64,000 nucleotides of DNA from Candidatus Peribacteria bacterium (GTDB lineage Bacteria > Patescibacteriota > Gracilibacteria > Peribacterales > Peribacteraceae), in contig JBEPVF010000001.1 of the NCBI GenBank assembly GCA_041691135.1, positions 1-64,000 on the forward strand, given 5' to 3'. Under the pieces are notes generated by a model. The model made no database searches, was not told where the DNA came from, and worked only from the letters and a program-made list of their open reading frames with translations. Below, in pieces: positions 2,236-29,076 of this stretch. Position 1 is the stretch's first letter. Every line of letters starts with the position of its first letter. Both the position numbers and the translations under genes were made by a program.

Positions 2236-2307
2236 GGGTCGGTACCGAAGTGGTCAAACGGGCCTGACTGTAAATCAGGTGGCTTACGCCTTCGCTGGTT
2301 CGAGCCC
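2236..2307 (+). pseudogene. 5' part of the host tRNA-Tyr(GTA), split by island A (B arm of attL-A)
   Basis: GGGTCGG acceptor 5' strand, D arm, CCTGA-CTGTAAA-TCAGG anticodon arm, variable arm, GCTGG-TTCGAGC, then non-tRNA sequence; the missing 3' strand is at 18154-18169. Confidence 0.95.
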
Positions 2308-2332
2308 TTCCCAAACTAGTTCGACAAAGACG
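2283..2332. other. attL of island A (crossover dinucleotide CC at 2306-2307)
   Basis: AAACTAGTTCGACAAAGACG (2313-2332) is an 18/20 inverted repeat of 18129-18148; both lie 5 bp from a CC. Confidence 0.88.
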
Positions 2333-2448
2333 CGAGGCGAGAGGACATCAGAAGAGAAGTCTACGAGTTGAAATACCGTTACCCACAGTCACAATCAGTT
2401 CTTTCTCTCCATCGTTAAAACAGGTTAAAAAGCATTAGTTTTCATCAT

Positions 2449-2534
2449 GGGTCGGTAGCGAAGTGGTCAAACGCAGCAGACTGTAAATCTGCCGGCTTAC
2501 GCCTTCAAAGGTTCAAATCCTTTCCGGCCCACCA
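2449..2534 (+). tRNA. tRNA-Tyr(GTA), complete, element-encoded replacement copy
   Basis: Full cloverleaf: GGGTCGG/CCGGCCC acceptor, GCAGA-CTGTAAA-TCTGC, long variable arm, AAAGG-TTCAAAT-CCTTT, encoded ACCA. Confidence 0.97.
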
Positions 2535-2564: not shown

Positions 2565-2729
2565 ATGGCAGACGAAATGACACCTCAGGAAGCCGAAGAG
2601 TTGTTTGTGAATCAAGCAGCCCATCTTTTGCTAGCACTGGCTGGCATCAAACATCTGCCCTCACCGAAGGCAAATCATCTTCAGATTGATGACGTTTTTC
2701 CTCCTGTCACACGAAAGAAATCCCGCTAA
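2565..2729 (+). CDS. small hypothetical protein (54 aa, MADEMTPQEAEELFVNQAAHLLL...)
   Basis: ORF read manually (below the track cutoff); first of a tight co-directional cluster. Confidence 0.5.
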   Translation: MADEMTPQEAEELFVNQAAHLLLALAGIKHLPSPKANHLQIDDVFPPVTRKKSR

Positions 2730-2732: not shown

Positions 2733-2906
2733 ATGCCTCTTCGTAAGCCAACAATTAGGCCTGATGTTATCTATACCTATTCATCAGATAACGAGAAAAC
2801 TCAGCAATTGATGTTAGAAGTAGTAGAGTTGATTTTGTCTCAATCCGATAGGACTACAGATATACAAGCAATTCACCAAAACCAATGCCAAGAATTGCAA
2901 ACATAA
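2733..2906 (+). CDS. small hypothetical protein (57 aa, MPLRKPTIRPDVIYTYSSD...)
   Basis: ORF read manually, starts 3 bp after the previous stop. Confidence 0.45.
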   Translation: MPLRKPTIRPDVIYTYSSDNEKTQQLMLEVVELILSQSDRTTDIQAIHQNQCQELQT

Positions 2907-3652
2907 CTGATGGCGACGGCATTGTGCCTAGATGGCGAGGTTGGCCTATTCAGGCCTGGCAGGCTGACCGTTGTGAGTTTTGCTGTGAAGAAAATAAGAA
3001 GGGGTCGAGAAAAAGAAAATTGGAATACAACCGCTATAAGAAAATCGAGATTTACCGCTACGTGAAAAAGAAAGATAAAGAAAAATGTATTAAGTACATC
3101 GGAAAAGCCTTTGAGATTCAGCAGAAAAGCCCTGAAATAACGACTCAGCTTTTTCTTGCGATGCGAGGACGGATAACCTATTTCGATAGGACTAGTTGGT
3201 ATCGAAAAGTGAAATTCATCCCAGCAGCAGCAGTTGAACGGGCTTTAATGTCTGCCAATCAACACCTTTATTTCCATCCCTTCGTAGAAATAATTAAAAA
3301 GCGTGGGAGTTATTTCCTCATTCATATCTATGAAGTTGCCAATGTGCCAACCGAAGACATAAAGATAGAAATTGTTTTCTTGGCTGATACGTTGGACAAT
3401 CTTGGCCCAAAAGAAAACCATAGGAAAAACATCGAAAAAATTAAATCTATGATGGAAATAGCACGCAAAATAGATAAAGTATTTCCTTTATATGTAACAA
3501 CCGACCACACGACCAAGCCTGGACGTGTACGTATAAATACTCTGATAAGACGCAGCGAAAAATTCCTGACTTCGAAGGAAAAACGAGAGTTAAAAATGAA
3601 ACGCTATATAAAGAAGAGTTTTGATGATTTACCGCTAGATTGGATGCATTAA
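2885..3652 (+). CDS. uncharacterised island protein, homologous to 19793-20437
   Basis: 255-aa ORF; shares HP(F/I)V, G..FLIH.Y, K(I/V)EIV and P.Y(V/I)TT motifs with the island B protein. Confidence 0.75.
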   Translation: MPRIANITDGDGIVPRWRGWPIQAWQADRCEFCCEENKKGSRKRKLEYNRYKKIEIYRYVKKKDKEKCIKYIGKAFEIQQKSPEITTQLFLAMRGRITYFDRTSWYRKVKFIPAAAVERALMSANQHLYFHPFVEIIKKRGSYFLIHIYEVANVPTEDIKIEIVFLADTLDNLGPKENHRKNIEKIKSMMEIARKIDKVFPLYVTTDHTTKPGRVRINTLIRRSEKFLTSKEKRELKMKRYIKKSFDDLPLDWMH

Positions 3653-5218: not shown

Positions 5219-5986
5219 ATGACAAGTACCCCGACAGCAGAGGCATTAATCGGATACTCACGTATCTCAACTGATGGCCAACGAGACGGATATGGTATCA
5301 AAATTCAGGAGGAGAGAATCAATGCGTATGCCGAAGCGAAGGGTTTGCCCGTCATGCGTATGTTCAGAGACGAGGGCGTTAGCGGTTCCCTCAAAGACCG
5401 CCCTGCGCTGCTTCAGCTATTGAATTACATAGAAGAAAACAGGCACATGCAGCTGGGTGTTTGTTTCCTACGACTAGACCGCCTTTCGCGTTCCCTCGTC
5501 GTGTCCGAACAACTTATAGCTGATTTTCAGAAACGTGGAATTGCCGTTATCTCTCTAGAGGAACCTGACCTGTTATCCAACGAACCCAACCGCAAGTTAT
5601 TCAGACAATTTAAGGCCATGATGGCGGAGTACGAAAAGGAGATGATTACAGCCCGCATGAGTGCAGGTCGCTTGAAGAAGGTAGAAAGCGGCGGCGGTTA
5701 CGCTGGAGGTCGAGTAGCTTTCGGTTTCAGGGCAAACGGGGACGATTACGTCCCTGTTCCCGAGGAAATTACTGTAGTACGTGAGATATTTAGACTCCGT
5801 AGGAAGCCTCGAAACGGGGAAAGGCTAGGGTATCTGCGCATCGCTAACATCTTGAACGAAAAATACGCTGCCATCCGTACGTTTAACCCTATGACCGTGA
5901 GATACATAGCAAACAACCCGTTTTATAAAGGATTTCAGGGCTATGGGGCTGTCAGTAGATACGATGCGCGGCTGAAAGTGGCCTGA
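5219..5986 (+). CDS. serine recombinase (catalytic plus short recombinase domain, no zinc ribbon)
   Basis: GYSRISTDGQ catalytic Ser, DEGVSG..DRPAL, RLDRLSR, GGRVAFGF, NPFYKG. Confidence 0.93.
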   Translation: MTSTPTAEALIGYSRISTDGQRDGYGIKIQEERINAYAEAKGLPVMRMFRDEGVSGSLKDRPALLQLLNYIEENRHMQLGVCFLRLDRLSRSLVVSEQLIADFQKRGIAVISLEEPDLLSNEPNRKLFRQFKAMMAEYEKEMITARMSAGRLKKVESGGGYAGGRVAFGFRANGDDYVPVPEEITVVREIFRLRRKPRNGERLGYLRIANILNEKYAAIRTFNPMTVRYIANNPFYKGFQGYGAVSRYDARLKVA

Positions 5987-7976: not shown

Positions 7977-9914
7977 ATGAATATGAAAAAACCGCCAAAA
8001 CTCTCTGGCCAGTCATTCAACCCACAAGAGGCCTTATTAGGCCTTCTAAAGGAAAAATGCCCTGAAGCCTTCAGTGATGGGAAAATTGATGTAAAAAAAC
8101 TCAAAGCAACCCTTGGGGAGTCCGTTGATGTAAATGGTGAACGCTACGGTCTATCGTGGGCTGGAAAAAATGATTGTTTCAGGCATATTCAGGAACCGAC
8201 AACGGCAACCCTTAAGCCATTGCGACAGAAGTCCGTTGATTTCGATGGAACTAAAAATATCTTTATTGAGGGTGATAATTTACAGGCATTAAAAATTCTT
8301 CAGAAATCCTACTATGGTCAGGTTAAAACTATTTATATAGACCCTCCATATAATACGGGCAGTGATAGCTTTATCTATCCTGACCGTTTTCAGGAGTCAA
8401 AGGAAGAATATATGGAACGTATCGGTCAGAAGGAAGAAGGACACCTAACGCGTGACGGAATGTGGCAGAAAAACAGTAAGGACAATGGTCATTATCATAG
8501 TAATTGGCTTTCAATGATGTTTCCGCGACTGTTCCTAGCACGGAACCTCTTACGGCAAGATGGTGTTATTTTTGTTAGCATTGATGACCATGAGGTACAA
8601 AATTTAAAAATGATAATGGATGAAGTTTTTGGTCCTGACAATTGGGTTGGAACAATCGTTTGGAACAATGTTACTGACAACAACCCAACGAATATTGCTA
8701 TCGAACATGAATATATCCATTGTTACGCACGCAACAAATCAAGCCTAGAATCAGTTTGGAAATCCCGTTCTTCAGATGTTAAGGAAATGCTTGTAAAAGT
8801 TGGTACTGAATTGACGAAAAAATATAAAGACTCAGGAGGATTAGCAGATGCTTATCAAAAGTGGTTTAAGCAAAATAAAGACTATTTATGGCCTCTAGAT
8901 AGGTACAAATATATTGATAATGGTGGTGTTTATACAGGTAGCCAGAGTGTGCATAACCCTGGCAGAGAAGGCTACAGATATGACGTATTACATCCAGTTA
9001 CCAAAAAACCAACTAAGCAGCCTCTTATGGGCTATAGATTTCCCGAAGAGACAATGAAAAAACTTTTAGAGGAAGGTAAGATTTTATTTGGAGAGGATGA
9101 AAACAAGATTATTGAATTGAAAGTCTATGCTAGTGAATATGAAGACAAACTACCTAGTATCTTAACGTTAGATGGCAGGTTGGGGGCTTACGAATTAAGA
9201 GATTTATTTACTGGATACAAGAAACTTTTTGATAATCCAAAACCCACAGCAGTAGTCAAACAATTGCTTAGTTTTAATACGGGTGGAAATGATTTGATTT
9301 TAGATTTCTTTGCGGGTTCAGGAACCACTGCCGATGCGGTGATGCAATTGAATTCGGAAGACAAAGGTCAACGCAGGTGTATTTCGGTTCAACTACCCGA
9401 AGAGTGCGAGAAAGATAGTGAGGCAATGCAGGCTGGCTTTAAAACTATTGCAGATATAGCAATGGAACGGATTCGTCGTGCAGGAAAGAAATTTGCAAAT
9501 ACTGACGCTGGCTTTAAAACTTTTGTTGTTGACGATAGTAACTTCAAAATATGGCGTTCTGACTTGAAGGGTCCAGACGAATTGGCAGCACAAATGGAAA
9601 TGTTTATAGACAACGTAAAAAAGGAAAGTACGCAGGAAAATGTTCTATGTGAGTTAATGCTGAAAACAGGCTTAGACCTAAATACGTCAGTACAAAAAAT
9701 AGAAAGCAAGACTGGTGCTTATTTCAAGCTAAACGGTGGTAAATTGATTGTATGCATTCAGGAAGGCATTACTGAAGCATTGGCCGACAAGATATTAACT
9801 GAGAAGCCAGATAAATTTATCTGCTTGGATAAAGCATTCGAGAGTAATGACCAGTTAAAGACAAACGTATTGCTTCAGATGGAACAGGCAGGTGTTGATT
9901 TCCTTGTAATTTAA
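7977..9914 (+). CDS. mod: type III R-M methyltransferase subunit
   Basis: IEGDNL..LK, YIDPPYNTG, DFFAGSGTT, ERIRRA; followed by res. Confidence 0.95.
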   Translation: MNMKKPPKLSGQSFNPQEALLGLLKEKCPEAFSDGKIDVKKLKATLGESVDVNGERYGLSWAGKNDCFRHIQEPTTATLKPLRQKSVDFDGTKNIFIEGDNLQALKILQKSYYGQVKTIYIDPPYNTGSDSFIYPDRFQESKEEYMERIGQKEEGHLTRDGMWQKNSKDNGHYHSNWLSMMFPRLFLARNLLRQDGVIFVSIDDHEVQNLKMIMDEVFGPDNWVGTIVWNNVTDNNPTNIAIEHEYIHCYARNKSSLESVWKSRSSDVKEMLVKVGTELTKKYKDSGGLADAYQKWFKQNKDYLWPLDRYKYIDNGGVYTGSQSVHNPGREGYRYDVLHPVTKKPTKQPLMGYRFPEETMKKLLEEGKILFGEDENKIIELKVYASEYEDKLPSILTLDGRLGAYELRDLFTGYKKLFDNPKPTAVVKQLLSFNTGGNDLILDFFAGSGTTADAVMQLNSEDKGQRRCISVQLPEECEKDSEAMQAGFKTIADIAMERIRRAGKKFANTDAGFKTFVVDDSNFKIWRSDLKGPDELAAQMEMFIDNVKKESTQENVLCELMLKTGLDLNTSVQKIESKTGAYFKLNGGKLIVCIQEGITEALADKILTEKPDKFICLDKAFESNDQLKTNVLLQMEQAGVDFLVI

Positions 9915-9915
9915 A

Positions 9916-11607
9916 ATGCTTAAAGAAATTTACATCAGTAATTTTCGGTCAATAAAAGAGTTGCATTTGCAGCCGAAAAATCTTTGTGCCCTTATAGGGG
10001 CTAACAGTGCTGGTAAATCCAATATTCTTAAAGCTATTGATTTGGTATTAGGTGAAGGCTGGGCGACTAAAGCTAAAGTGGCTAAGGAACTATTTTATGA
10101 CTTGTCTCAGCCAATAGAAATTCATATTAGTCTTTTGGAGTCAATTCCTTGGCAGTACTACGGTAGGAACGTGCAAGTAAACAAAATTACTTTGCATATG
10201 ACTTATGCACCACTGTCTTGTGAAGTGCGTCTTTGGTCTAATCATCCAAGTGACAATAGTGGTAAGGGTTATTATTTAAACGATGAATTTAAGAAGTCCT
10301 GTCACTTTATCTATGTGCCTTCGATTCGAAGGCTAGAAGCACAGATGTATGTTTCCAATTGGACTCTATTAGGAAAACTAATGCGTACAATTTATGAAGA
10401 ATATGTACGTCATTACGATAATGATGAAGATAGGCTGAAATCTGAGTTTAAAACAATAATGCAGCCCCCAAAGGAGTTTTTGGAAGCAGATTTTGACCAA
10501 AATAAAATTACATTTGCTAGATTCAGCAGTGTTTTCATACGCCACTGTCAGGCAAATAGTGCAGGGCTGGCAGATGGCTTTATGCCCAACCTTAATATCT
10601 ACAATCCAAATTGGTTCTATAAAACACTTCAGATATGTATCCAAGAAGACTCTTCAGATAAAGTATTTGATGCTGAAGAAGTAGGTTCAGGGATGCAAAA
10701 TTTAATTTTACTTTCTATCTTTCAGACTTACGCTGAACTTGTAGGCGGACGGGCGATATTGGCTATAGAAGAACCAGAGTTATTTCTCTACCCGCAGGCA
10801 CAAAGGCATCTTTACAAAAGTTTTAGAGAACTTACAAAAAACTCGGTTGATGATAGTACTGGTGAAATTAGCAGAAAAGGCACCCAAATTTTTTACACGA
10901 CACATAACCCCAATTTTGTTGATGCCCAAAGGGCAGACGAAATCGAATTAATAGCAAAAAATCGAGAAACTGGAACGCATATCTTAGAAAAAAGTGAATT
11001 AATTACATCAGAATTTTTGAAACAGGCACAATTCGCTACTTACACGCACTTCAATACGGAAAGAAATGAATTGTTTTTTGCTAAGAAAATTTTATTAGTC
11101 GAGGGTGCAAGCGACAAAATTTTGTTTGCAACTTTATGCAAAGAAAAATGGGGTATTGATACTGACAAGACAGGAATTTCTATTATTGAGTGTGGCGGAA
11201 AATTAGGCGTATTGTTTTTTATAGGGGTATGCCGACTATCGGGAATTGAAAAGTTTTTTGCAGTTTGGGATAGTGATAATGATTCCTCAGAAGAAGTTAG
11301 AGATGAACATAGCCAATTTCAGTATACCACTGAAAATGGTAGGGGGCTGCAAATAGCAGGCACTCTTGAACAATTCCTGCAAACTAAATTCCCTGCTTCC
11401 TTGTTTAGGGCAAAATATAAAGTTAAGGATGCTTATGATTGGGCATGTACCGTAGTTGTTGAAGAAATACCTATTGAGTTTGATGGGGTCAGGAATTTTC
11501 TTGGTTCTGAAGCCGCCTCCACTCCTGAAGAGGAAACACAAGTAGAGGAAGTAGTGACCACAGTTGCTTATTCAAGTGATATTAGAATCGAAGACTTACC
11601 ATTCTAA
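9916..11607 (+). CDS. OLD-family ATP-dependent nuclease (ABC ATPase + TOPRIM)
   Basis: ISNFRSI, GANSAGKS, GSG signature, IEEPELFLYP, TTH, FFAKKILLVEGASD, D.D TOPRIM motif. Confidence 0.92.
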   Translation: MLKEIYISNFRSIKELHLQPKNLCALIGANSAGKSNILKAIDLVLGEGWATKAKVAKELFYDLSQPIEIHISLLESIPWQYYGRNVQVNKITLHMTYAPLSCEVRLWSNHPSDNSGKGYYLNDEFKKSCHFIYVPSIRRLEAQMYVSNWTLLGKLMRTIYEEYVRHYDNDEDRLKSEFKTIMQPPKEFLEADFDQNKITFARFSSVFIRHCQANSAGLADGFMPNLNIYNPNWFYKTLQICIQEDSSDKVFDAEEVGSGMQNLILLSIFQTYAELVGGRAILAIEEPELFLYPQAQRHLYKSFRELTKNSVDDSTGEISRKGTQIFYTTHNPNFVDAQRADEIELIAKNRETGTHILEKSELITSEFLKQAQFATYTHFNTERNELFFAKKILLVEGASDKILFATLCKEKWGIDTDKTGISIIECGGKLGVLFFIGVCRLSGIEKFFAVWDSDNDSSEEVRDEHSQFQYTTENGRGLQIAGTLEQFLQTKFPASLFRAKYKVKDAYDWACTVVVEEIPIEFDGVRNFLGSEAASTPEEETQVEEVVTTVAYSSDIRIEDLPF

Positions 11608-11608
11608 A

Positions 11609-14296
11609 ATGAAGCTTCACTTTGACCCAAATCAGGCATATCAATTGGACGCAATCAATGCGATTGTGGACGTTTTCAGAGGGCAGCCGCTTGAAAAGGG
11701 CGACTTCGCCGTGGAAATGAAGCAGCCCGACGGCCAAATGAAAATTGAGGGTGATTTAGCTATTGGTAATTGTCTTCAGCTAGACCAAAGCACGATTGTC
11801 CAAAACTTGAATGCTATTCAGGAAAGAAATGGTGTGGAGAAAACAATGGTTCCAGTTGGATTCGTACAGCCCTTTAATGCCCCGATGAAACAGACTGCTA
11901 TCTGGAAAGAAGGTATGAATTTCTCCGTAGAGATGGAGACAGGGACAGGAAAGACGTATGTATATCTTCGCACCATTCACGAATTGCATCGCACCTATGG
12001 CTTCAGAAAATTTGTCATCGTTGTTCCCAGTGTCGCTATCAAAGAGGGTGTTATGAAGAATCTAGAAATCACCAAGGAACACTTCGGACTGCTGTTTGGG
12101 AACCCTGAAATGGATTTCTATGTGTACGACTCAAAGAAGCGCGGATTACTTCGTCAGTTCGCCACAACGAATGCCCTGCAAATCCTCGTCATCAATATTG
12201 ATTCCTTCGCCAAAGAAGACACGAATATCATCTACCAGAAAAGCGACTGGGGAGTACCTATTCGTTATGTACAGGGCGTAAGGCCGATTGTGATTGTGGA
12301 TGAACCCCAGAATATGGAAACGGACATACGTAAGAAGGCCATAGAAAATCTGCATCCCCTTTGCACTCTGCGCTACAGCGCAACCCACAAATACCATTAC
12401 AACTTGGTCTACAAGCTTGACCCTGTGAAAGCCTACGACTTGGGACTGGTGAAGAAAATTGAAGTGGATAGCGTGGTGACTGCGGATAACTTCAATGCCG
12501 CATTCGCACAACTCAAAGCTGTCACTAGCAAAAAAATGACGGTTACAGCAAAGCTGGCCATTGATGTTGCGGCAGATAGTGGTGTGAAACGAAAAGACGT
12601 TACAGTTCGAGTTGGGGCAGACCTCTACACGCTTTCAGAGAATCGTGACGTGTACCGTGACGGCTTTATCGTGGAGGAGATAGACGTGACAGGCCAGTTC
12701 ATTCGTTTCAGTAATGGCCAGCAGCTTTCCGTAGGACAGACTCAGGGGGAACTCACGGATGATGTTCAAAAGTTTCAGTTGAAGAAGGCTATCCAAAATC
12801 ATTTGGAGAAGGAACGGAAGATGGCAGGAATGGGTATTAAGGTGCTTACACTGTTCTTTATTGACCGAGTATCGAATTACCGTAGTTACGAGGCCGACAC
12901 ATTGAAGAAGGGCAAATTTGCAGTCTGGTTCGAGGAATTGTGCCGCGAGATGCTTACTCGGCCTCAATACAAAGGATTACTGCAATCCGACCTGACGGCG
13001 GTGCATAACGGCTATTTTTCCGAGGATAAGAAAGGTAACTGGAAGGATACGCGTGGTGATACTCAGGCCGACGACGACACTTACAGTTTAATTATGAGGG
13101 ACAAGGAAAAACTATTGTCACTCGATACGCCCCTGCGATTCATCTTCAGCCACTCGGCATTACGAGAAGGCTGGGATAACCCGAATGTCTTTCAAATTTG
13201 TACGCTGAACGAAAGCACTTCGGAGATGAAAAAGCGTCAGGAAATCGGACGTGGATTGCGCTTGCCTGTGAATCAGGAGGGCAACCGCATATTTGATGAG
13301 AATATCAACGTACTCACGGTAGTGGCCAACGAAAGCTACGACGATTTCGCCAGAAAGCTGCAAACCGAAATTGAGGACGACTGCGGTGTGGACTTCACTG
13401 GTCGTATCAAGAAAAAAGAAGATAAGCGTAAGGTAACGCTTCGCAAGGGCTATCAACTCGATGCAAATTTTAAAGACTTGTGGGAGAGGATTAAGCACAA
13501 AACTCGCTATAAGGTTCAGTACTCCACGGATGGCCTTGTAGAGAGTGCGGGACAAACTCTCTCAGAAATCACGGTAACGCCTCCGCGTATTCGTTCTGTG
13601 CGCGTTCAACTAGGCATGTCATCTGAAGGAATTGAAGCCAAATTACTTTCGGCTGATGAAAAATTGGTGCAAGTAGAGATTAATGCGGTTCCAGATATTC
13701 TTGGGGGCATTCAGGGTAAAACCAAACTTAGCAGAGATACGATTTTTAGAATTATTAAACGTTCGGGAAAACTCAAAGAAATCCTAAAGAATCCGCAACA
13801 ATTCATGGACAGTGCGGCAACCATCATCACAACCACCATGAAGAAACTGATGGTGGATGGAATCAAATATGAAAAGCTAGCAGGACAAGAATGGGCAATG
13901 CGTTTATTTGAAAATGAGGAATTAGAGGCATACTTGTCAGATTTATACACAGTTCAACAGCCTAAAAAAACTCTATGGGATTATCTTCAGGTGGATTCCA
14001 CCGTGGAAAGCACCTTCGCCAAAGACTTAGAAAGCCGCGAAGATGTGCAGTTCTTCATCAAGTTGCCGTGGTGGTTCAAGATTGAAACTCCCATTGGGGG
14101 CTACAATCCCGACTGGGCAATTGTCTTTGAAAACGATAAGCGCGTGTATTTTGTGGCTGAAACCAAATCATCACTTAATGCAGATGACTTGAGAGTGCAG
14201 GAGGAATTGAAAATACAATGTGGTGCGAGGCATTTCGCCACCATGGACGACGTAAAATTTCAGAAAGTGACAAAACTAAGTGAAATCATTCTCTGA
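11609..14296 (+). CDS. res: type III R-M restriction subunit (helicase-nuclease)
   Basis: VEMETGTGKTYVYL, DEPQ, LRYSATH, ALREGWDNPNVFQIC, QEIGRGLRL, YNPDW..AETK; start reset to the ATG at 11609. Confidence 0.96.
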   Translation: MKLHFDPNQAYQLDAINAIVDVFRGQPLEKGDFAVEMKQPDGQMKIEGDLAIGNCLQLDQSTIVQNLNAIQERNGVEKTMVPVGFVQPFNAPMKQTAIWKEGMNFSVEMETGTGKTYVYLRTIHELHRTYGFRKFVIVVPSVAIKEGVMKNLEITKEHFGLLFGNPEMDFYVYDSKKRGLLRQFATTNALQILVINIDSFAKEDTNIIYQKSDWGVPIRYVQGVRPIVIVDEPQNMETDIRKKAIENLHPLCTLRYSATHKYHYNLVYKLDPVKAYDLGLVKKIEVDSVVTADNFNAAFAQLKAVTSKKMTVTAKLAIDVAADSGVKRKDVTVRVGADLYTLSENRDVYRDGFIVEEIDVTGQFIRFSNGQQLSVGQTQGELTDDVQKFQLKKAIQNHLEKERKMAGMGIKVLTLFFIDRVSNYRSYEADTLKKGKFAVWFEELCREMLTRPQYKGLLQSDLTAVHNGYFSEDKKGNWKDTRGDTQADDDTYSLIMRDKEKLLSLDTPLRFIFSHSALREGWDNPNVFQICTLNESTSEMKKRQEIGRGLRLPVNQEGNRIFDENINVLTVVANESYDDFARKLQTEIEDDCGVDFTGRIKKKEDKRKVTLRKGYQLDANFKDLWERIKHKTRYKVQYSTDGLVESAGQTLSEITVTPPRIRSVRVQLGMSSEGIEAKLLSADEKLVQVEINAVPDILGGIQGKTKLSRDTIFRIIKRSGKLKEILKNPQQFMDSAATIITTTMKKLMVDGIKYEKLAGQEWAMRLFENEELEAYLSDLYTVQQPKKTLWDYLQVDSTVESTFAKDLESREDVQFFIKLPWWFKIETPIGGYNPDWAIVFENDKRVYFVAETKSSLNADDLRVQEELKIQCGARHFATMDDVKFQKVTKLSEIIL

Positions 14297-14527
14297 TTTG
14301 TAGGCATCACACAAACGCTATCGAATCCCTACAATACCCTTTACGGGATTTAAATTTCCAGGACATACATTTTACTGTGAGTACAACGTCAGGGGCGCCT
14401 CAATTGAAGCTAGGGGCATACAGGGGCATGTCCAATAGTAAGGCATAAAGCTGTGACGGGGTTTAGGGTAGTTCAGTTGTGAATTTCGCGTTTGTACACG
14501 AGGACAAGCAAGCTATTCTGGGTTGCA

Positions 14528-16051
14528 ATGTACATAACAGCGTCGATTCTTTACGATTACCTGTGCTGTCCGCATCGCGTTTGGAGAGATAGGTACGGCC
14601 CCCAAGATGAAAAAATACAAGAAACAAACCCTTTTGTTTCATTGCTTTGGGAAAGAGGCGTAAGGCATGAGAAAGAAATGGTAATGAAATTGGGTGAATT
14701 AGTGGATATTAGCAAAGGTTCAATCGAGGAACGCATCGCCCAGACGACAGAGGCCATGAAGAATGACACGCCGCTTATCTATCAGGGTGTCATCATGTAC
14801 GGCGACTTGCTGGGCATCCCTGACTTGCTGCGAAAGTTACCTGATGGTTTCTATGTACCTGTGGATATTAAATCAGGGTCAGGAATGGAAGGCGCGGACG
14901 AAGAGGTGGGAGAAGAAGGAAAACCTAAAAAACACTATGCGGTTCAACTCTGCTTGTACGTCGAAGTGCTTTGCCGTCTGGGGTTTGCAAAAGAGAAGCG
15001 CGGCATCATTTTGGACATAGACAGACAAGAGGTGGAATACATCCTCGACCAACCGCGAGGAAAAAAGTCCCCTGAGACGTGGTGGGATTTATACGAAGAT
15101 TTGAAAGAAGAAGTGAAACCGCTTCTTCAGGGGACGAAGAAAAATAAGCCCGCGATGGCTGGGTGCTGCAAGCTGTGTCCGTGGTTCAACAGTTGCAAGA
15201 AATGGTGCAAAGAATCTGATGACCTCACATCGTTGCCTGGACTTGGGCGAAGCAGAAGGGACACGATTAACGATGATTTGAAGATTGAAACCGTAACCCA
15301 GCTTATCTCTCTTGATGTCCAAACAGTGCTGGAAAGGAAAAAGAAGGAGAAAGTGTTTATGAGTGGGATAGCGGAGAAAACGCTTACCAGCTTCCTAAAA
15401 CGTGCAACGATTTTCAAAGTAACCCAGAAGCCCGTTCTGTATCAGCCTGTTACCTTTCCAGTCGTCTCAACGGAGTTGTTTTTTGACATTGAAGACGACC
15501 CGACACAGGAATTTGTCTATCTGCATGGCGTTTATGAAAGAAAAGGGAAGGAGGAGAAATTTTATTCTTTTGTGGCTAAAGACCAGACTTCAGAGGCGGA
15601 AGAAGCATCTTGGAAAGATTTTTGGAACTATATCTGGTCGCTTCCGAAGGATGATTACGCGGTGTATTACTATTCTCATCACGAAAAGACGACGTACACG
15701 CGCATGAGAAAGAAGTACCCAACTGTTATTGATGAAAACACTCTCAATGCGTTTTTTGAGAATCCCAATGTCATTGACCTGTATTCGGCAGTTGTGAGGC
15801 CATTCACCGACTGGCCGCTGTGGAGTTATTCGCTGAAAGAAATAGCACAGTATCTTGGTTTCAAATGGAGAGATGAAACCCCGTCAGGCGCACTTTCGAT
15901 TCAATGGTTTAACGATTACATGGAAACAAAGGACGAAAGTATTTTGAAAAGAATTCTTGAATACAACGAGGATGACTGCAAAGCCACAATGGTTTTGAAG
16001 GATGGTTTGGCTAAATTGGCTTTGGAAACTGTCAAAGTGCCAATAAAATGA
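14528..16051 (+). CDS. TM0106-family RecB-like nuclease with RNase H-like domain
   Basis: CPHR, GIPDLL..PVDIK, QLCLY, C..CPW...C, FFDIE, YSLK, YNEDDC. Confidence 0.88.
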   Translation: MYITASILYDYLCCPHRVWRDRYGPQDEKIQETNPFVSLLWERGVRHEKEMVMKLGELVDISKGSIEERIAQTTEAMKNDTPLIYQGVIMYGDLLGIPDLLRKLPDGFYVPVDIKSGSGMEGADEEVGEEGKPKKHYAVQLCLYVEVLCRLGFAKEKRGIILDIDRQEVEYILDQPRGKKSPETWWDLYEDLKEEVKPLLQGTKKNKPAMAGCCKLCPWFNSCKKWCKESDDLTSLPGLGRSRRDTINDDLKIETVTQLISLDVQTVLERKKKEKVFMSGIAEKTLTSFLKRATIFKVTQKPVLYQPVTFPVVSTELFFDIEDDPTQEFVYLHGVYERKGKEEKFYSFVAKDQTSEAEEASWKDFWNYIWSLPKDDYAVYYYSHHEKTTYTRMRKKYPTVIDENTLNAFFENPNVIDLYSAVVRPFTDWPLWSYSLKEIAQYLGFKWRDETPSGALSIQWFNDYMETKDESILKRILEYNEDDCKATMVLKDGLAKLALETVKVPIK

Positions 16052-16111
16052 TTTCAGAATCGCGAAATTGCTTTTGAAAAGCAGTCGAAAGACATTATTA
16101 TAAAAGTGCAA

Positions 16112-16345
16112 ATGTCCAAAACTCCTACACCAAAGACTAAATCATTTTGTGTTATTGGTGCTGTCCAATATGAGATGCTTGAAACGCACGAAAAAAACTT
16201 TCAAATTGCAAGCTGGTTCCATCGCCATTGTTCGCATTCAGAGGACAACCCCGAATTGGAACAGGTGATGCTAGATAAGACGCGACCGAATGGTTACCAC
16301 GAAGACGGCGACAAAATTTATGTCCTTTCACGTATGCCAAAATGA
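16112..16345 (+). CDS. small hypothetical protein translationally coupled to LSR-A
   Basis: ATGA overlap with the integrase start at 16342. Confidence 0.5.
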   Translation: MSKTPTPKTKSFCVIGAVQYEMLETHEKNFQIASWFHRHCSHSEDNPELEQVMLDKTRPNGYHEDGDKIYVLSRMPK

Positions 16346-18123
16346 AAGATAGCAGAATTGAGTTTCGTGCTGTGGGGTACATTAGAGAATCCACCAGAAC
16401 CCAAACTGTTGGAGGCTATCGTGCGGGTTATCAGAAAGAGAGAATTGAAGGTTATTGTAGAAAGCATGGTTTTAAACTTGTGAAAATGTTTGAGGATTCA
16501 GGGAGTGGGAAAGATGTCAGACATAGGCCTAACTTTGAGATGATGCTTGCCTATGCGAAAGCAAATGATATTCAGTTTATCGTTGTTGAAGACATCAACA
16601 GGTTTTACCGCGAGTTTAAAGATGGCATGGACTTAGAAAAAAAGCTTTACGATGAAAACGACATCATTGCAATCGACCCTGAGGATTACAACCCGCGTGA
16701 ATACAAGGAATCAGGATTCAGCCCCCAAGCGTGGCGGCAACGCGCACATCGTCGCGTGGATGCTGAGGGAGAAAGAAGGGACATAATCGAAAGAGTGACT
16801 CAGGGGTATCAAAAGAAAAAAGACGGCCAGATGTACGTTGGGCCGCTGCCTTATGCTGTTGAGTGGGTTGACCCTGATTTCCCAAAATACATCAGGTATA
16901 AAAAACATGAAGGCAAGGTGGTGCAGGAAATTTTTAACTTGTACATGACTGGAATGGGCTGCACTGCGATTGCCAAACAGCTAAACGAGAAAGGCTACGT
17001 CATCGAGGAAGGTAAAAGAGTTGAATTGACACGTAAGAGTGGCCTTCCCTATTTCAAGCGCATCACAAAAAACGTACCTTTTACGTTTGACCGTATCCGC
17101 CATATTTTAAGTAATAAAACCTACATTGGTCGCCAAAACACAGGCACTTCGCTACGTTTGTTTACACTCGATGCAAACGACGAAGAGGTCTTAATATCGC
17201 CATTAATTGATGATGATACTTTCAGTAAGGCGAGGGAACAATTAAAGATAAATCGACGTGGCAAAAACCCTAACAATAAAAATAGTAGACAGACAAACCG
17301 TGTTTATCTCTTTCAGGGCATCGTGAGACACGCCGATTGTGGTAGCCCAATGTACGGGGTTCCTGAAAAGTTACGCAACGGCGAAGTTACAAGGCGATAT
17401 CAATGTTCTGCGAGTAAACAGGGGACATGTAATGCTAGGCTGAAGTCACTACGTGCTGATGAAGTTGAATCCCAAATAATTGAGTTATTAAAAGAGATAA
17501 AATTAAAGAGTATTGGGGAAATAGAGTCTGAGTTACGGGAGATTATTAAAATTACCGCAGCCGAGTTAAGCAGGCCACAATCGTTTGAAAATCTAACTCT
17601 TGCCGACAAGGCCGAATTAAAATCTTTAAAAGACGCATTGGGTAATGCTTATGATTGGTTGCTTGCCGAACAAAAGACGGTCATGGAGGAAAGACTGCAA
17701 AAAATTGAACAGAAAGCTAAGGACAAAAGCGTTGAAATGCTTAGGTACTACGATTTCCAAGAGATGAGGCGTATGTTTGTTGACTTATCACAATCATTCA
17801 CCGACCTTCAAAATCTCGCTGCCCGTCAGGAATTACTCAGTATCTTGTTTCAGAAAGTTTTGATTGGGAAGCCGTTGCCCAAGCAACCACATGAACATGC
17901 CAAGGCATTTCACTGGATGAAAGGCGCGGTAGCCGATTATGAGGCATTCAGGGATGCAACAAAGCTAAAAACATTGTTACGACAATTCACGCCCATGCTT
18001 TTTGAGGAGATTCATGTTGGTGACGGCGATGAAGATTCACCAATTAAGAAGGTAATCTTTAAGCCCACAGGGCTATTCCTGTTGATGACTGATGGAGTTC
18101 GTAACTCTAAAAAAAAGAGTTGA
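16342..18123 (+). CDS. large serine recombinase/integrase of island A (LSR-A)
   Basis: YIREST catalytic motif, RP.FE.ML, N..YIG, HADCGSPM...YQC...C zinc ribbon, coiled coil; abuts attR-A. Confidence 0.92.
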   Translation: MKDSRIEFRAVGYIRESTRTQTVGGYRAGYQKERIEGYCRKHGFKLVKMFEDSGSGKDVRHRPNFEMMLAYAKANDIQFIVVEDINRFYREFKDGMDLEKKLYDENDIIAIDPEDYNPREYKESGFSPQAWRQRAHRRVDAEGERRDIIERVTQGYQKKKDGQMYVGPLPYAVEWVDPDFPKYIRYKKHEGKVVQEIFNLYMTGMGCTAIAKQLNEKGYVIEEGKRVELTRKSGLPYFKRITKNVPFTFDRIRHILSNKTYIGRQNTGTSLRLFTLDANDEEVLISPLIDDDTFSKAREQLKINRRGKNPNNKNSRQTNRVYLFQGIVRHADCGSPMYGVPEKLRNGEVTRRYQCSASKQGTCNARLKSLRADEVESQIIELLKEIKLKSIGEIESELREIIKITAAELSRPQSFENLTLADKAELKSLKDALGNAYDWLLAEQKTVMEERLQKIEQKAKDKSVEMLRYYDFQEMRRMFVDLSQSFTDLQNLAARQELLSILFQKVLIGKPLPKQPHEHAKAFHWMKGAVADYEAFRDATKLKTLLRQFTPMLFEEIHVGDGDEDSPIKKVIFKPTGLFLLMTDGVRNSKKKS

Positions 18124-18124: not shown

Positions 18125-19681
18125 TCACCGTCTTTGTCGAATCAGTTTAACAACCAGCCCGGCCCACCATTCAAAACAGACAGCCTTCTTCTCAGCCTGA
18201 CGGAAAGGAGCTCTTGGCTGCCAGCTCAAGATTTTTGCTTGTACGGAATAGTTCGATGCAAAGGAATTGAGAATCGCCTGCCTGATTTTGGGCGATCCAT
18301 ATAGAAATGCTTCTCGAAGCAGATCCATGAGTTCAAAGCTGCGTATGACTTTTTCGATCCACGCTGTACCTCTATCGTGGAGCTGGTTTGTAGCAGCCTG
18401 CAATTCATCGCGCCGTGCTTTGAGCTGGGATAGCTGGACATCTACGGCATCAGCCATGCCCATCTCGACTGCCTTATCGCGCTGACGAAAGAGAGAACCT
18501 ATTTCCTGCTGCACCTTGGCGTATTCGGCTTGCAGGCTTTCTCGACGTTCAATTTCGTTCTCGCTTTTCTCCTCGTGGATTTTCAACAGTCTTTCCCTAA
18601 GGTTTCCTAAATCGCTCTGGCTCAAAGTCACCTCAGAAAGAATGCCATGCAATTGAGCCTCTACTTCGTTTTGTGAGATTATGACTCCACATTTGGTTTC
18701 TGAGTTTTTGCATTCGTAGTAAATGTACTTTCCCTTAGCTCGATATGAGCAAAGTGAGCGGCCGCAGAGCGGGCAACGAAGTACGTTTGCGTAATGGAAA
18801 AGCTCACGGAGTGTTGGAATCTTTGGACGAGCCGCATTGCTGTTTCGCCCCGCAAGGACAAGTTGCGTACGATTCCACAGGTCTTCAGGCACGATGGCTT
18901 TGTGACGCCCCTTGCTAATTTTGTTGTTGAACCGGACGCAGCCTTTGTAGATGGGGTCATGGAGGATGTTGTTAATGGCTGTGACTCCTAGGACATTGTT
19001 TCTCTTGCTCCGGAGGCCAATTCTTTTCGCTTCTTTTACCAAGTCTCGCAAGGAATAGCTGCCGCTTATAACTAGTTGAAAGAGGCGTAGGATATGCGGA
19101 GCACGCTCAGGATCCACTTCCAATACAGGAGTGCCATCGGGCAGTTTGATGTTGTTGTACCCCGGTCCCACCGGCCCCATATGTTTCCCTTCCGCAGAAC
19201 GCATTTCCATAGCTTTCAAAATACGGTCGCCTTTGTCCCTACTGTCTTTCCAGCTCATGGCGTTCTCTAGGGTGAGCATGAAGATGGTGTTGGAGTCTGC
19301 ACCTGTGTAGCGTTTCCCGTCTGTGATATCCATCGCCTGGATTCCTCCATCGACGAGGCGCTGCACAAAGGCCCCTGAATCAGCGTGGTTGCGGCTGATG
19401 CGATTGGGATGAACGACGATGATCCCTCTCACCTCTCCCTTGTCTGCCATCGTCATTATCTGATTGAACGTGGGACGACCCGGACGGTATGCGCTCTGCG
19501 ACTCTTCCATTACTTTCAAAGGATAATGAGCTGTGTCTGGCAGTGTTGCGTGATGCCCCTCGATCATTTGTCGTTGGTCTTGCAATGTATGCACCTGCTT
19601 ATCTTCTGTATCGGTTGATTTTCGACAGTACCCGATCCAGTACTGAGTGGCAGCCTGTGTTTTCTTCTTTTTCCGTGGCAT
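18125..19681 (-). CDS. large serine recombinase/integrase of island B (LSR-B), with a non-native C-terminus
   Basis: YCRKST, PNRISRN, DPIYKG, H.AIV, CPLCG...YYEC...C; the last codons read antisense through the tRNA 3' end and attR-A. Confidence 0.93.
   Translation of the reverse strand: MPRKKKKTQAATQYWIGYCRKSTDTEDKQVHTLQDQRQMIEGHHATLPDTAHYPLKVMEESQSAYRPGRPTFNQIMTMADKGEVRGIIVVHPNRISRNHADSGAFVQRLVDGGIQAMDITDGKRYTGADSNTIFMLTLENAMSWKDSRDKGDRILKAMEMRSAEGKHMGPVGPGYNNIKLPDGTPVLEVDPERAPHILRLFQLVISGSYSLRDLVKEAKRIGLRSKRNNVLGVTAINNILHDPIYKGCVRFNNKISKGRHKAIVPEDLWNRTQLVLAGRNSNAARPKIPTLRELFHYANVLRCPLCGRSLCSYRAKGKYIYYECKNSETKCGVIISQNEVEAQLHGILSEVTLSQSDLGNLRERLLKIHEEKSENEIERRESLQAEYAKVQQEIGSLFRQRDKAVEMGMADAVDVQLSQLKARRDELQAATNQLHDRGTAWIEKVIRSFELMDLLREAFLYGSPKIRQAILNSFASNYSVQAKILSWQPRAPFRQAEKKAVCFEWWAGLVVKLIRQRR
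18129..18180. other. attR of island A (CC at 18154-18155), overlapping the remnant of attL of island B
   Basis: CGTCTTTGTCGAATCAGTTT-AACAA-CC followed by the tRNA 3' strand. Confidence 0.88.
18154..18169 (+). pseudogene. 3' part of the split host tRNA-Tyr
   Basis: CCAGC-CCGGCCC-ACCA pairs with GCTGG (2294-2298) and GGGTCGG (2236-2242); it does not match the T-stem of the copy at 2449. Confidence 0.93.
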
Positions 19682-19686
19682 AGAGG

Positions 19687-19790
19687 GGAGTGGGAAGCTT
19701 GTTAATCACCTGTTATTTACCTGTTAATTCAATGCCCACAGTGGGCGCTCCAGCTTCCCACTCCGCATAGACGGCGTGGTGGAGCGCCCA
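19687..19790 (-). promoter_or_regulatory. structured leader/operator upstream of LSR-B
   Basis: Two perfect interleaved inverted repeats (13 bp and 11 bp) plus three TGTTA repeats at 11-bp period. Confidence 0.6.
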
Positions 19791-19792
19791 TT

Positions 19793-20437: not shown

Positions 20438-20490
20438 GATCCTATTTCTATCCTTGGGGTAGCTGCCATGCGTTGGTCACTGTTGGCAGT

Positions 20491-21618: not shown

Positions 21619-21635
21619 CGAATTTTGCCGAATTT

Positions 21636-22220: not shown

Positions 22221-22328
22221 GTTGGGATCTCGAAATCATTAGAGATAGTATACCTCCTTGTTCTCCCTAAATTTAAATAAGACCAAAAGTGGTGGTAGAC
22301 TTTAAGTACCTATTCCCTTACTTGTTCA

Positions 22329-22712: not shown

Positions 22713-22716
22713 GGGC

Positions 22717-23694: not shown

Positions 23695-23770
23695 CTCGCC
23701 ACCACCCTATAAATTAATTGCCTCTTATCCTCATAGACTCTTCTATTTAAACAGATAGAATCAACCATAC

Positions 23771-24175: not shown

Positions 24176-24236
24176 AACAGGAAATATTTCTGCCGAGTCA
24201 TACTCACTATTGTTTTACCTGTTTTCACTTATCACT

Positions 24237-25598: not shown

Positions 25599-25617
25599 TT
25601 TTTTTTCTTCCTTCTGT

Positions 25618-25782: not shown

Positions 25783-25799
25783 TTCTTTCGCTTCTCCCT

Positions 25800-26015: not shown

Positions 26016-26022
26016 TTTTACC

Positions 26023-29000: not shown

Positions 29001-29076
29001 CACGTTCTACCGAATGTTCACACAGTTCCAGATTAATGGAAAAGTAGAAACAGTTGCTTTTGATTGGCAATCTTAA
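26023..29076 (+). CDS. copA: Cu(I)-translocating P1B-1 ATPase with a fused C-terminal His-rich domain
   Basis: GMHCASC, TGES, CPC, DKTGT, HP, GDGIND, YN and M..SS motifs. Confidence 0.93.

What the first reader, a model, noticed from the sequence alone, without database searches (positions are those of the whole stretch)
2449..2534. Replacement tRNA is recoded by compensatory changes, most heavily where the integrases bind
Seen: relative to the host copy, the acceptor stem, D-loop, anticodon loop and variable-arm hairpin (GGCTTACGCC) are identical. The T-arm changes from GCTGG-TTCGAGC-CCAGC to AAAGG-TTCAAAT-CCTTT, the anticodon stem from CCTGA/TCAGG to GCAGA/TCTGC, and the D stem from CCG/CGG to GCG/CGC. 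All stem changes preserve pairing. The T-arm changes flank the CC crossover of island A and remove the GGTTCGAGC motif apparently used by island B. Inference: a functional tRNA that is immune to self-integration and to competing elements.
Basis: partly seen in the sequence, partly recalled or inferred. Interest (0 to 1): 0.8.

Follow-up and report, generated by a model that had tools for sequence, protein, structure and literature searches.

The report
Island-borne spare tRNA-Tyr gene
A mobile DNA island that cuts this bacterium's only tyrosine tRNA gene in two carries a complete spare copy, and the spare's unusual stems are the normal version found in a neighbouring genus, not a purpose-made disguise.

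Summary
A 15.8-kb large-serine-recombinase (LSR) island (2308-18155) splits the host tRNA-Tyr at a CC in the T arm. It carries an intact tRNA-Tyr (2449-2534), the only intact one in the 92%-complete genome. Spare and rebuilt host copy differ at 17 of 86 positions, 9 in the T arm, and all stem changes keep pairing.

The "recoding for integrase immunity" reading is not supported. 15 of the 17 changes are the native state of single-copy chromosomal tRNA-Tyr genes in three genomes of another genus of the same family. The other two are one base pair.

The same island family sits at the same CC in 6 more species genomes and 4 metagenome contigs. Host-versus-spare divergence there runs from T-arm-heavy (3 loci) to T-arm-light (1) to none: 86 of 86 identical beside an LSR 84% identical to this one.

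A second island (about 18170-40780) appears to cross over at the tRNA's terminal CA, not at GGTTCGAGC.

What does seem undescribed is the architecture: an LSR island that splits an essential single-copy tRNA gene and supplies a whole spare. A separate lead is a conserved A-AAA-AAG slip site at the LSR's end, whose -1 frame reads across attP into a conserved peptide.

The parts
2236..2307 (+). 5' 72 nt of the split host tRNA-Tyr (B arm of attL-A); the crossover CC is 2306-2307
   Evidence: 92-94% identical to intact tRNA-Tyr genes of same-family genomes. Junction table.
2308..2332 (+). Left end of island A: P' arm of attP (TTCCCAAACTAG + TTCGACAAAGACG)
   Evidence: A 13-nt perfect inverted repeat with 18129-18141. 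The same arm follows the CC in 6 of 6 left ends seen: G000, G519, G244, G174, G296 and G446.
2320..2418 (+). Conserved coding-like stretch (FDKDARREDIRREVYELKYRYPQSQSVLSLHR-stop) with no in-frame start codon. In this window a TAG stands directly upstream of it.
   Evidence: Pairwise differences by codon position are 24, 14 and 63 over 60 nt in 4 islands. Reverse frames are less conserved. Also present in G446 and, more distantly, G296.
2449..2534 (+). Island-borne spare tRNA-Tyr(GTA), intact, CCA encoded
   Evidence: ARAGORN. Rfam 62.5 bits. Cloverleaf fold at -28.3 kcal/mol. Only intact tRNA-Tyr in the genome.
2565..2729 (+). Small conserved island ORF (54 aa) of unknown function
   Evidence: A conserved peptide stands after the spare tRNA in G244 as well. 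No Pfam or PHROGs match.
2885..3652 (+). Conserved island ORF (255 aa) of unknown function
   Evidence: tblastn: 72% identity in G519, 47% in G244 and 30% in G274. No Pfam or PHROGs match.
5219..5986 (+). Small serine recombinase (resolvase domain plus part of a recombinase domain)
   Evidence: Pfam. 59% identical homologue in the G296 island.
7977..14296 (+). Defence cargo: type III methyltransferase, OLD-family ATPase-nuclease, type III restriction enzyme
   Evidence: Pfam. PADLOC MTase_III 2.5e-185, Old 3.1e-45, REase_III 5.6e-294. Mod and Res homologues (50% and 67%) in metagenome island L072.
14492..16051 (+). Protein with a Cas4-like nuclease part and an RNase_H_2 domain
   Evidence: Pfam, PADLOC.
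16106..16345 (+). 79-aa ORF that overlaps the LSR-A start; conserved in the island family
   Evidence: tblastn: 81% G519, 54% G446; 56% L071, 39% L073, 36% L072; 45% G274. No family match.
16342..18123 (+). LSR-A, the large serine recombinase of island A. It ends in an A8-G run (A-AAA-AAG in frame) 47 nt before the crossover.
   Evidence: Resolvase + Recombinase + Zn_ribbon_recom. Y13, R15, S17 and Q21 are invariant in 3 homologues. A-run and frames.
18129..18155 (+). Right end of island A: P arm of attP (CGTCTTTGTCGAATCAGTTTAACAA) plus the crossover CC at 18154-18155
18156..18169 (+). 3' 14 nt of the split host tRNA-Tyr (AGCCCGGCCCACCA)
18125..19681 (-). LSR-B. Its reading frame runs antisense through the tRNA 3' end (..EWWAG..) into island A.
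   Evidence: Pfam. Homologues with the same overlap lie beside intact tRNA-Tyr genes in G007 and G002.
18170..40780 (.). Island B (inferred limits): unknown ORFs, HMA-DsbD-cupredoxin protein, P-type ATPase, histidine kinase, HlyD and ABC genes
   Evidence: Inverted arms at 18175-18187 and 40761-40773, each 5 nt from a shared CA. The flank after 40780 matches the native 3' flank in same-genus G003. Synteny with G003 resumes at about 40.9 kb. Pfam.

Best explanation
The tRNA at 2449-2534 is cargo of a 15.8-kb mobile defence island. The island's large serine recombinase (LSR-A) recombines a palindromic attP with the T arm of the host's single tRNA-Tyr gene, at a CC that is tRNA positions 61-62. 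This kind of enzyme needs only a 2-bp overlap, so the island cannot rebuild the gene from an attP-borne copy of its 3' end. The gene is split, and the island supplies a whole spare 141 bp inside attL, in the same orientation as the host fragment.

The spare is a foreign allele of tRNA-Tyr from another lineage of the same family. It was not recoded on the island. Its paired stem differences from the host copy are the ordinary covariation that separates orthologous tRNAs.

Shown: the split, both junctions, the attP arms, the intact spare, the recurrence of the architecture, and the match of 15 of 17 changes to native alleles. Inferred: that the spare is expressed and charged, that the island is still mobile, and that the donor was close to genus g40.
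For: Split gene and junctions. attP arms: a 13-nt perfect inverted repeat either side of the CC. LSR-A has Resolvase + Recombinase + Zn_ribbon_recom domains and ends 30 nt before the crossover.

ARAGORN finds 50 tRNAs in the genome. The only two tRNA-Tyr calls are in this window, and one of them is the split copy.

The same alternative stems occur in chromosomal orthologues: D stem CCG/CGG or GCG/CGC; anticodon stem CCTGA/TCAGG or GCAGA/TCTGC; T stems GCTGG, GAAGG, GGGGG, AGAGG; T loops TTCGAGT, TTCGAAT, TTCAAAT.

In a scan of all 200 family genomes, GAAGG-TTCAAAT-CCTTC occurs in G425, G426 and G389. Each has a single intact copy with no split copy, no attP arm and no island protein within 1.5 kb. 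G389 lies in the conserved FtsX-to-downstream neighbourhood. 15 of the 17 host-to-spare changes equal those alleles; they are 6, 6 and 7 differences from the spare, against 17 for the host.

The architecture recurs at the same CC in 7 of 7 right junctions and 6 of 6 left junctions. LSR-A homologues are 36-84% identical.

Spares identical to the host gene: G519 86 of 86 by comparison of the printed sequences; G174 0 differences in 71; G274 16 of 16; L071 16 of 16 by eye.

LSRs 84% identical use attBs with different T arms: GCTGG-TTCGAGC in G000 and GGGGG-TTCGAAT in G519.
Against: The exact AAAGG-TTCAAAT-CCTTT arm was found in none of the other 199 family genomes, so one base pair is so far specific to the island. 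The g40 alleles differ from the spare at 4 (G425, G426) or 3 (G389) variable-arm positions, so they are not the exact donor.

The T-arm share of the differences is unusually high here: 9 of 17, reached by 0.3% of comparable chromosomal pairs. It is also high in two related islands: G244 6 of 9 in the 72 nt visible, and G446 8 of 10 in 69 nt. This bias is what the immunity idea predicts.

The identical-spare loci could be islands homogenised after integration and no longer mobile. G174 is a remnant without an LSR. No expression or charging data exist.
Confidence: 0.7

Rival explanations
1. Immunity by mismatch. Once the island is excised, attP and a spare that looks like attB lie on one circle. 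The LSR would recombine them and destroy the island. Selection therefore keeps spares that differ from the attB their LSR uses, mainly in the T arm.
For: T-arm share 9 of 17 here, against a mean of 4.9 in comparable chromosomal pairs. T-arm-heavy in 3 of the 4 non-identical host/spare pairs: G000, G244 and G446. In the fourth, G296, 9 of 11 differences still lie between the variable arm and the 3' end. All 6 attB left halves seen carry GGTTCGA, whereas the spares of G000 (GGTTCAA), G244 and L071 (GGTGCAA) do not. The identical-spare case G174 is a decayed remnant.
Against: 15 of the 17 changes are inherited native allele states, not changes made on the island. G519, whose LSR is the closest to this one (84%), carries an 86 of 86 copy of its host's gene on one contig together with an intact LSR. 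The spares of G274 and L071 equal the host remnant over 16 of 16 nt. L071's host remnant CC-TTG implies an attB with the same T stem as its spare. The three T-arm-heavy pairs are not independent: the spares all have an xAAGG T stem and the hosts all xCTGG. Gene conversion from the adjacent host 5' fragment, which lacks the 3' strand of the T stem, would give the same bias without any selection for immunity (inference).
Confidence: 0.2
2. The copy at 2449-2534 is not island cargo. It is a second chromosomal tRNA-Tyr of a tandem pair, and the island happened to hit the first copy.
For: The two copies lie 213 bp apart in the same orientation.
Against: The copy lies inside attL, after the P' arm and a conserved island segment, in G000, G244, G296, G519 and G446. 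Its allele is foreign to this genus: 17 differences from the host gene against 5-7 between the host gene and its nearest relatives. In the class search most genomes with a match gave a single match, and those with two that I examined were island or contig-end cases.
Confidence: 0.03
3. The spare is a decaying pseudogene, and tyrosine decoding depends on an unassembled tRNA-Tyr elsewhere in the genome.
For: The genome is 92% complete in 35 contigs. The T stem has three A-U pairs.
Against: Rfam scores it 62.5 bits, within the range of this genome's other long-arm tRNAs. All stems pair. GUA, G1-C72, A73, G53-C61 and T54, T55, C56 are kept. Spares are kept intact in 7 of 7 related loci where that end is visible.
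Confidence: 0.04

Closest known systems
Genomic islands and prophages that integrate into tRNA or tmRNA genes with tyrosine integrases
   Same: The target is a tRNA gene, here within the T arm, and the host keeps a working tRNA after integration. Passages of PMC12884075 say that many attP sites complete the gene they insert into. The T-loop sublocation class of Williams 2002 is recalled, not read.
   Different: Those elements carry a copy of the displaced 3' segment in attP, so direct repeats flank the island. Here only CC is shared. No further copy of the 3' segment exists in the window: 2 matches at up to 3 mismatches, namely the spare and the remnant. The gene stays split and a whole separate gene replaces it.
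Large-serine-recombinase elements that interrupt genes (recalled examples: A118 in comK, skin in sigK, SPbeta in spsM; IMEs in rumA per PMC5704250)
   Same: LSR domain set, 2-bp crossover, palindromic attP, recombinase gene next to the att site, target gene split.
   Different: Passages of the review PMC5704250 say that site-specific serine-recombinase IMEs disrupt genes dispensable for the host. Here the target is the only tRNA-Tyr gene, and the loss is made good by cargo.
Serine-recombinase islands at the 3' end of ssrA in Dehalococcoides
   Same: Resembles island B: an LSR gene lies directly beside the 3' end of a small RNA gene, which stays intact.
   Different: Island B's crossover is inferred at the terminal CA of the CCA end, and LSR-B's reading frame runs antisense into the tRNA. 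I did not check whether the Dehalococcoides elements do the same.
Caldiarchaeum subterraneum tRNA-Thr locus (PMC3293823; abstract and outline read)
   Same: A 5' tRNA fragment, then a 1.8-kb insert that encodes a recombinase, then a complete tRNA gene of the same identity.
   Different: It is archaeal, the tRNAs contain introns, and the element is described there as a probable transposable element similar in composition to pNOB8-type plasmids. It is not described as an LSR island with a defined attP, and no recurrence across genera is reported in the abstract.
tRNA genes carried by phages and plasmids
   Same: A mobile element encodes a complete tRNA.
   Different: Those are usually read as codon-usage or anti-defence cargo (recalled). 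Here the tRNA has the same identity as the gene that the element itself destroys, and it sits next to the junction.

Membership tests
Large serine recombinase (LSR-A, 16342-18123) | N-terminal resolvase catalytic domain with the active-site serine motif | tested here: met
   PF00239 8e-17 at residues 10-161. Y13, R15, S17 and Q21 are invariant in 3 homologues. That this is the nucleophile motif is recalled knowledge.
Large serine recombinase (LSR-A, 16342-18123) | Recombinase domain plus zinc-ribbon domain C-terminal to the catalytic domain | tested here: met
   PF07508 6e-15 and PF13408 1.1e-09.
Large serine recombinase (LSR-A, 16342-18123) | Short (2-bp) crossover with no longer attP/attB identity, and an attP built as an imperfect inverted repeat | tested here: met
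   Only CC is shared by attL, attR and the rebuilt attB. The 25-nt arms have 13 perfect outer pairs.
Large serine recombinase (LSR-A, 16342-18123) | Catalyses attP x attB integration | not testable with these tools
   Only the occupied form was seen in contigs of the probable source run.
Bacterial tRNA-Tyr (long-variable-arm type), copy at 2449-2534 | Cloverleaf with GUA anticodon and long variable arm | tested here: met
Bacterial tRNA-Tyr (long-variable-arm type), copy at 2449-2534 | Elements important for charging: A73, G1-C72, anticodon (this list is recalled knowledge) | tested here: met
   Read directly from the sequence. These positions are identical to the host copy.
Bacterial tRNA-Tyr (long-variable-arm type), copy at 2449-2534 | Expressed, processed and aminoacylated | not testable with these tools
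   No RNA run was listed.
tRNA-restoring island (attP carries the displaced tRNA 3' segment) | Direct repeat of the tRNA 3' segment at both island ends | tested here: not met
   Apart from the spare and the remnant, no other match to the 17-nt 3' segment at up to 3 mismatches.
   15 of 17 are the native state in G425, G426 and G389.
   Different in G000, G244, G446 and G296. Identical in G519 (86 of 86) and G174 (71 of 71), and over the 16-nt remnant in G274 and L071.
   Needs a recombination assay.

The most novel reading that the evidence does not exclude
These islands take over the host's only tRNA-Tyr. A mismatch between the spare and the attB is kept by selection against attP x spare self-recombination. 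Islands whose spare becomes homogenised to the host gene (G519) are trapped and decay (G174), and the island's gene is left as the host's tRNA-Tyr. On this reading the island family drives horizontal turnover of tRNA-Tyr alleles, which would explain the patchy spread of T-arm alleles among genera of the family.
Probability: 0.18. Interest if true: 0.75.

Novelty: new variant of a known kind. Interest (0 to 1): 0.5.

Why it matters
Integration into tRNA genes is textbook, but the textbook solution is to rebuild the gene from an attP-borne fragment. Here a recombinase that cannot do this splits an essential single-copy tRNA gene and supplies a complete foreign allele. After integration, the host reads tyrosine codons with an island gene. 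This happens in at least seven species of two families of a small-genome lineage.

It offers a concrete route for horizontal replacement of a core translation gene. It also yields a natural set of matched attP/attB pairs for a diverse LSR clade. For the scan itself, it shows that compensatory "recoding" between two tRNA copies should first be tested against the allele diversity of relatives.

The separate lead, a conserved slippery site whose -1 frame reads across attP, would be a new way for an element to sense whether it is excised, if it is real.

Tried and rejected
- A genome-contig scan with the single LSR-A protein found only one unrelated locus, 21% identical. That used the cap, so I could not scan all species genomes for the exact T arm. 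I used the genome search on the family (200 genomes) and a class sample (401 genomes) instead.
- Metagenome records could not be extended. The spare of L072 and the host 5' fragment of L071 therefore remain unseen.
- Sequencing runs: no RNA holder was listed. I laid contigs of the probable source run and three other runs. They showed only the occupied form in the source, with no joint for an empty site or a circle. Short contigs in other runs match 2234-2307 and stop at the crossover, which I did not follow up. Contigs cannot show absence.
- Promoter scan: two consensus matches against 1.5 expected, so not informative.
- Pfam and PHROGs gave nothing for the conserved small island ORFs or for the first five ORFs of island B.
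- PDB sequence search for LSR-A gave only weak matches to the catalytic domain (TnpX, 4.4e-06).
- Island B's 13-nt inverted repeat alone is about what chance gives. My estimate is 1.5 such matches for the region scanned. I accept the boundary only because three things agree: the equal 5-nt spacing from a shared CA, the match of the flank to G003, and the synteny break.
- I considered that the conserved segment at 2320-2418 belongs to a reverse-strand gene. I rejected this because the reverse frames carry stops and are less conserved.
- Literature: full-text searches found no description of an LSR island that splits a tRNA gene and carries a whole spare, and none of a frameshifted LSR reading across attP. 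For most papers I saw only listings. I read passages of PMC12884075, PMC13626063 and PMC5704250, and the abstract and outline of PMC3293823. Supplements were not seen and may hold att-site tables that bear on this.

Full report
WHAT IS THERE

The window holds two tRNA-Tyr(GTA) bp apart (repeat family D2). The first (Rfam 35.6 bits) is tRNA only up to 2307 (..TTCGCTGGTTCGAGC-CC) and then runs into unrelated DNA. Its missing end, CC-AGCCCGGCCCACCA, lies at 18154-18169.

Between the two parts lie 15.8 kb of lower G+C, about 0.39-0.47 against about 0.52 outside. This DNA ends with a 593-aa large serine recombinase, LSR-A, which has Resolvase, Recombinase and Zn_ribbon_recom domains. Its stop codon is 30 nt from the junction.

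The island ends form a palindromic attP. CGTCTTTGTCGAATCAGTTTAACAA (18129-18153) and TTCCCAAACTAGTTCGACAAAGACG (2308-2332) have 13 perfect outer pairs around a CC. Only CC is shared by attL, attR and the rebuilt attB, as expected for a serine recombinase.

Cargo:
- a type III methyltransferase and restriction enzyme, with an OLD-family nuclease gene between them;
- a protein with a Cas4-like part and an RNase_H_2 domain;
- an SLH protein;
- a small serine recombinase;
- several conserved ORFs with no family match.

THE SPARE tRNA

The second tRNA (2449-2534; 62.5 bits) starts 141 bp inside attL, in the same orientation as the host fragment. It folds as a cloverleaf with a long variable arm. 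ARAGORN finds 50 tRNAs in the 1.74-Mb, 92%-complete genome. The only two tRNA-Tyr calls are these two, so the island copy is the only intact one assembled.

Against the rebuilt host gene it differs at 17 of 86 positions: D stem 2, one unpaired G to A after the D stem, anticodon stem 4, one T to C before the variable hairpin, T stem 6, T loop 3. The acceptor stem, D loop, anticodon loop and variable hairpin are identical, and all stem changes keep pairing.

IS THE T-ARM BIAS UNUSUAL?

I collected 46 unique chromosomal tRNA-Tyr genes from relatives, giving 1035 pairs. Pairs that differ at 15-19 sites have on average 4.9 T-arm differences, and 0.3% of them reach 9. The bias is therefore real for this pair.

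Two caveats apply. The sequences were picked by similarity to one or other copy, and the pairs are not independent.

WHERE THE SPARE'S SEQUENCE COMES FROM

I scanned all 200 genomes of the family for the spare's last 31 nt, allowing up to 3 mismatches. 32 of the 200 had a match. The exact sequence occurs only in this island. The nearest form, GAAGG-TTCAAAT-CCTTC, occurs in G425, G426 and G389, all of one genus, g40. Those genes are single intact copies with no split copy, attP arm or island protein within 1.5 kb. G389's gene sits in the conserved neighbourhood, with FtsX upstream and the same downstream genes.

15 of the 17 host-to-spare changes are the state of those alleles. The other two are one base pair, A-U for G-C. 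These alleles differ from the spare at 6, 6 and 7 positions, while the host gene differs at 17. Three or four of those differences lie in the variable arm, so g40 is a close relative of the donor and not the donor itself.

The T arm of the spare in a related island (G244: CAAGG TGCAAAT CCTTG) is the single-copy allele in G221 (with FtsX synteny), G432 and G434. The same 31-nt segment occurs in 4 more family genomes that I did not inspect.

The unusual arm is a chromosomal variant of another lineage.

THE ISLAND FAMILY

- The class sample (401 genomes) gave LSR-A homologues in G274 (46%) and G296 (36%).
- The family (200 genomes) added G519 (84%) and G446 (44%).
- The tRNA search showed split-plus-full pairs in G244, G296 and G174.
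- A metagenome scan with an alignment of three LSRs added L071 (64%), L072 (44%), L073 (42%) and L074 (36%, with the same right junction as G296).

All 7 right junctions and all 6 left junctions lie at the same CC.

Host copy against spare:

| Locus | Compared | Differences |
|---|---|---|
| G000 | 86 nt | 17, of which 9 in the T arm |
| G244 | 72 nt visible | 9, of which 6 T arm and 2 D loop |
| G446 | 69 nt | 10, of which 8 T arm |
| G296 | 85 nt | 11, of which 2 T arm, 5 variable arm, 3 acceptor |
| G519 | 86 nt | 0; spare 1.2 kb inside attL, all on one contig with an intact LSR |
| G174 | 71 nt | 0; attL, 1.39 kb, then an intact tRNA followed by an FAD-monooxygenase gene; no LSR, so a remnant |
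| G274 | 16-nt host remnant | 0 |
| L071 | 16-nt host remnant | 0 |

LSRs 84% identical sit in attBs with different T stems and loops: GCTGG-TTCGAGC in G000 and GGGGG-TTCGAAT in G519. The variable T-stem positions are therefore unlikely to be what these enzymes read (inference).

READING

The spare is a foreign allele carried by the island, and its covarying stems are ordinary tRNA divergence.

The immunity idea survives only in a weaker form, in which selection sorts which allele an island can carry. In its favour, 3 of the 4 non-identical pairs are T-arm-heavy, and the logic is sound: attP x spare recombination on the excised circle would be self-destructive. Against it:
- the identical spares, above all G519;
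- the shared ancestry of the three T-arm-heavy cases, where the spares all have xAAGG and the hosts all xCTGG;
- a neutral alternative: gene conversion from the adjacent host 5' fragment can homogenise everything except the T stem, because the fragment lacks that stem's 3' strand (inference).

ISLAND B

LSR-B (18125-19681, minus strand) has a reading frame that runs antisense through the tRNA's 3' end (..EWWAG..). Homologues with the same overlap lie beside intact tRNA-Tyr genes in G007 and G002.

Four observations define the island:
- AACAGACAGCCTT (18175-18187) and AAGACTGTCTGTT (40761-40773) are inverted arms, each 5 nt from a shared CA.
- The sequence after 40780 (TCATTGACATA) matches the native 3' flank of the tRNA in same-genus G003 (TCACTTGACATA).
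- Synteny with G003 resumes at about 40.9 kb.
- The arms alone are near chance expectation; the three observations together carry the inference.

I therefore place island B at about 18170-40780, crossing over at the terminal CA of the CCA end. This leaves the tRNA intact, and it is not at GGTTCGAGC.

Island A's insertion lies 13 nt from that crossover and replaces the outer part of island B's left site. So island B probably came first (inference). The spare's 3' flank is unrelated to island B's right half-site.

A SEPARATE LEAD

After the P' arm comes a 20-codon stretch, FDKDARREDIRREVYELKY. It is conserved in G000, G519, G244 and G174, with differences of 24, 14 and 63 at codon positions 1, 2 and 3. 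It is also present in G446 and, more distantly, G296. In the two islands checked, G000 and G519, it has no in-frame start codon, either in the integrated form or across attP in the circular form.

In 7 of 7 right ends, LSR-A ends in a run of 8 or 9 A followed by G, 47-48 nt before the crossover. In G000 and G519, read by hand, this is A-AAA-AAG in the zero frame. In all 7, the -1 frame is open from that run to the crossover, in the phase that continues into the conserved stretch. Five of 6 left ends are open in that phase; this window has a TAG there.

A -1 slip would thus make a longer LSR only when the island is circular. This is a hypothesis. The openness of 7 related sequences is not 7 independent tests, and the P arm is conserved for binding in any case.

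LIMITS

- There are no expression data.
- No excised or empty forms were seen; contigs cannot show absence.
- Genome names are hidden, so the lineage is described only as a small-genome class whose relatives have genomes of about 0.7-2 Mb.
- Paper supplements were not available.

Noticed in passing
window 18076-18155 with 2308-2418; L081, L083, L064, L066, L071, L072: LSR-A ends in a conserved run of 8 or 9 A followed by G (A-AAA-AAG in frame in G000 and G519). In 7 of 7 right ends its -1 frame is open to the crossover, in the phase that continues, in the circular form, into the conserved peptide FDKDARREDIRREVYELKY. That peptide shows third-position variation (24, 14, 63) and has no start codon of its own. 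This window has a TAG just before it. It may be an LSR isoform made by frameshifting only from the excised circle.
   Followed up: partly
window 18125-40780: A second island sits at the same tRNA. The LSR-B frame reads antisense through the tRNA 3' end. The inferred crossover is at the terminal CA. Cargo includes an HMA-DsbD-cupredoxin protein, a P-type ATPase, a histidine kinase, and HlyD and ABC genes. Island A's insertion replaces the outer part of island B's left site.
   Followed up: partly
L040 (G244 spare), L071, L014, L016, L021, L091, L092, L095: In tRNA-Tyr genes of several genera, a D loop reading GTAG or GCAG instead of GTGG goes with a T loop reading TGCAAAT or TGCAAGT instead of TTCGAxT. 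This looks like covariation of the tertiary 18-55 pair (A18 with G55), which is unusual for a nearly universal G18-psi55 contact.
   Followed up: no
L067 (G174:C4) 1239-2786: Island remnant: split host 5' fragment, attL arm, 1.39 kb with one long ORF of unknown function, then an intact tRNA-Tyr identical to the fragment, then host-like genes. A deletion between the spare's 3' end and the identical host remnant would produce this arrangement.
   Followed up: partly
L051 (G351) and L034 (G347): Extra copies of the last 16 nt of tRNA-Tyr lie shortly downstream of the gene. In G347 the extra copy is next to a sequence like the LSR-B-type flank of G007. tRNA-Tyr appears to be an integration hot spot throughout this family.
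   Followed up: no
window 7977-14296; L072 1329-6927: A type III restriction-modification pair with an OLD-family (GajA/Old-like) ATPase-nuclease gene between mod and res. Mod (50%) and Res (67%) homologues ride on metagenome island L072, whose LSR is only 44% identical, so cargo is shared between diverged islands.
   Followed up: no
window 5219-5986; L065 4605-5346: A 255-aa serine recombinase with a full resolvase domain and only part of the recombinase domain. It is conserved (59%) in the distant G296 island. It may be a truncated LSR or a resolvase with a role in the island.
   Followed up: no
window 1-148, 1245-1392, 36685-36832: Three copies of a 148-nt segment (73-79% identical) come from the conserved C-terminal region of FtsX/MacB-type permease genes. 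Two are tandem genes upstream of the tRNA and one lies inside island B.
   Followed up: no
L068/L069 (G315:C10 end, C7 start): One contig ends inside a tRNA-Tyr 5' part and another begins with a full tRNA-Tyr. This may be an assembly break caused by mixed occupied and empty sites in that population.
   Followed up: no
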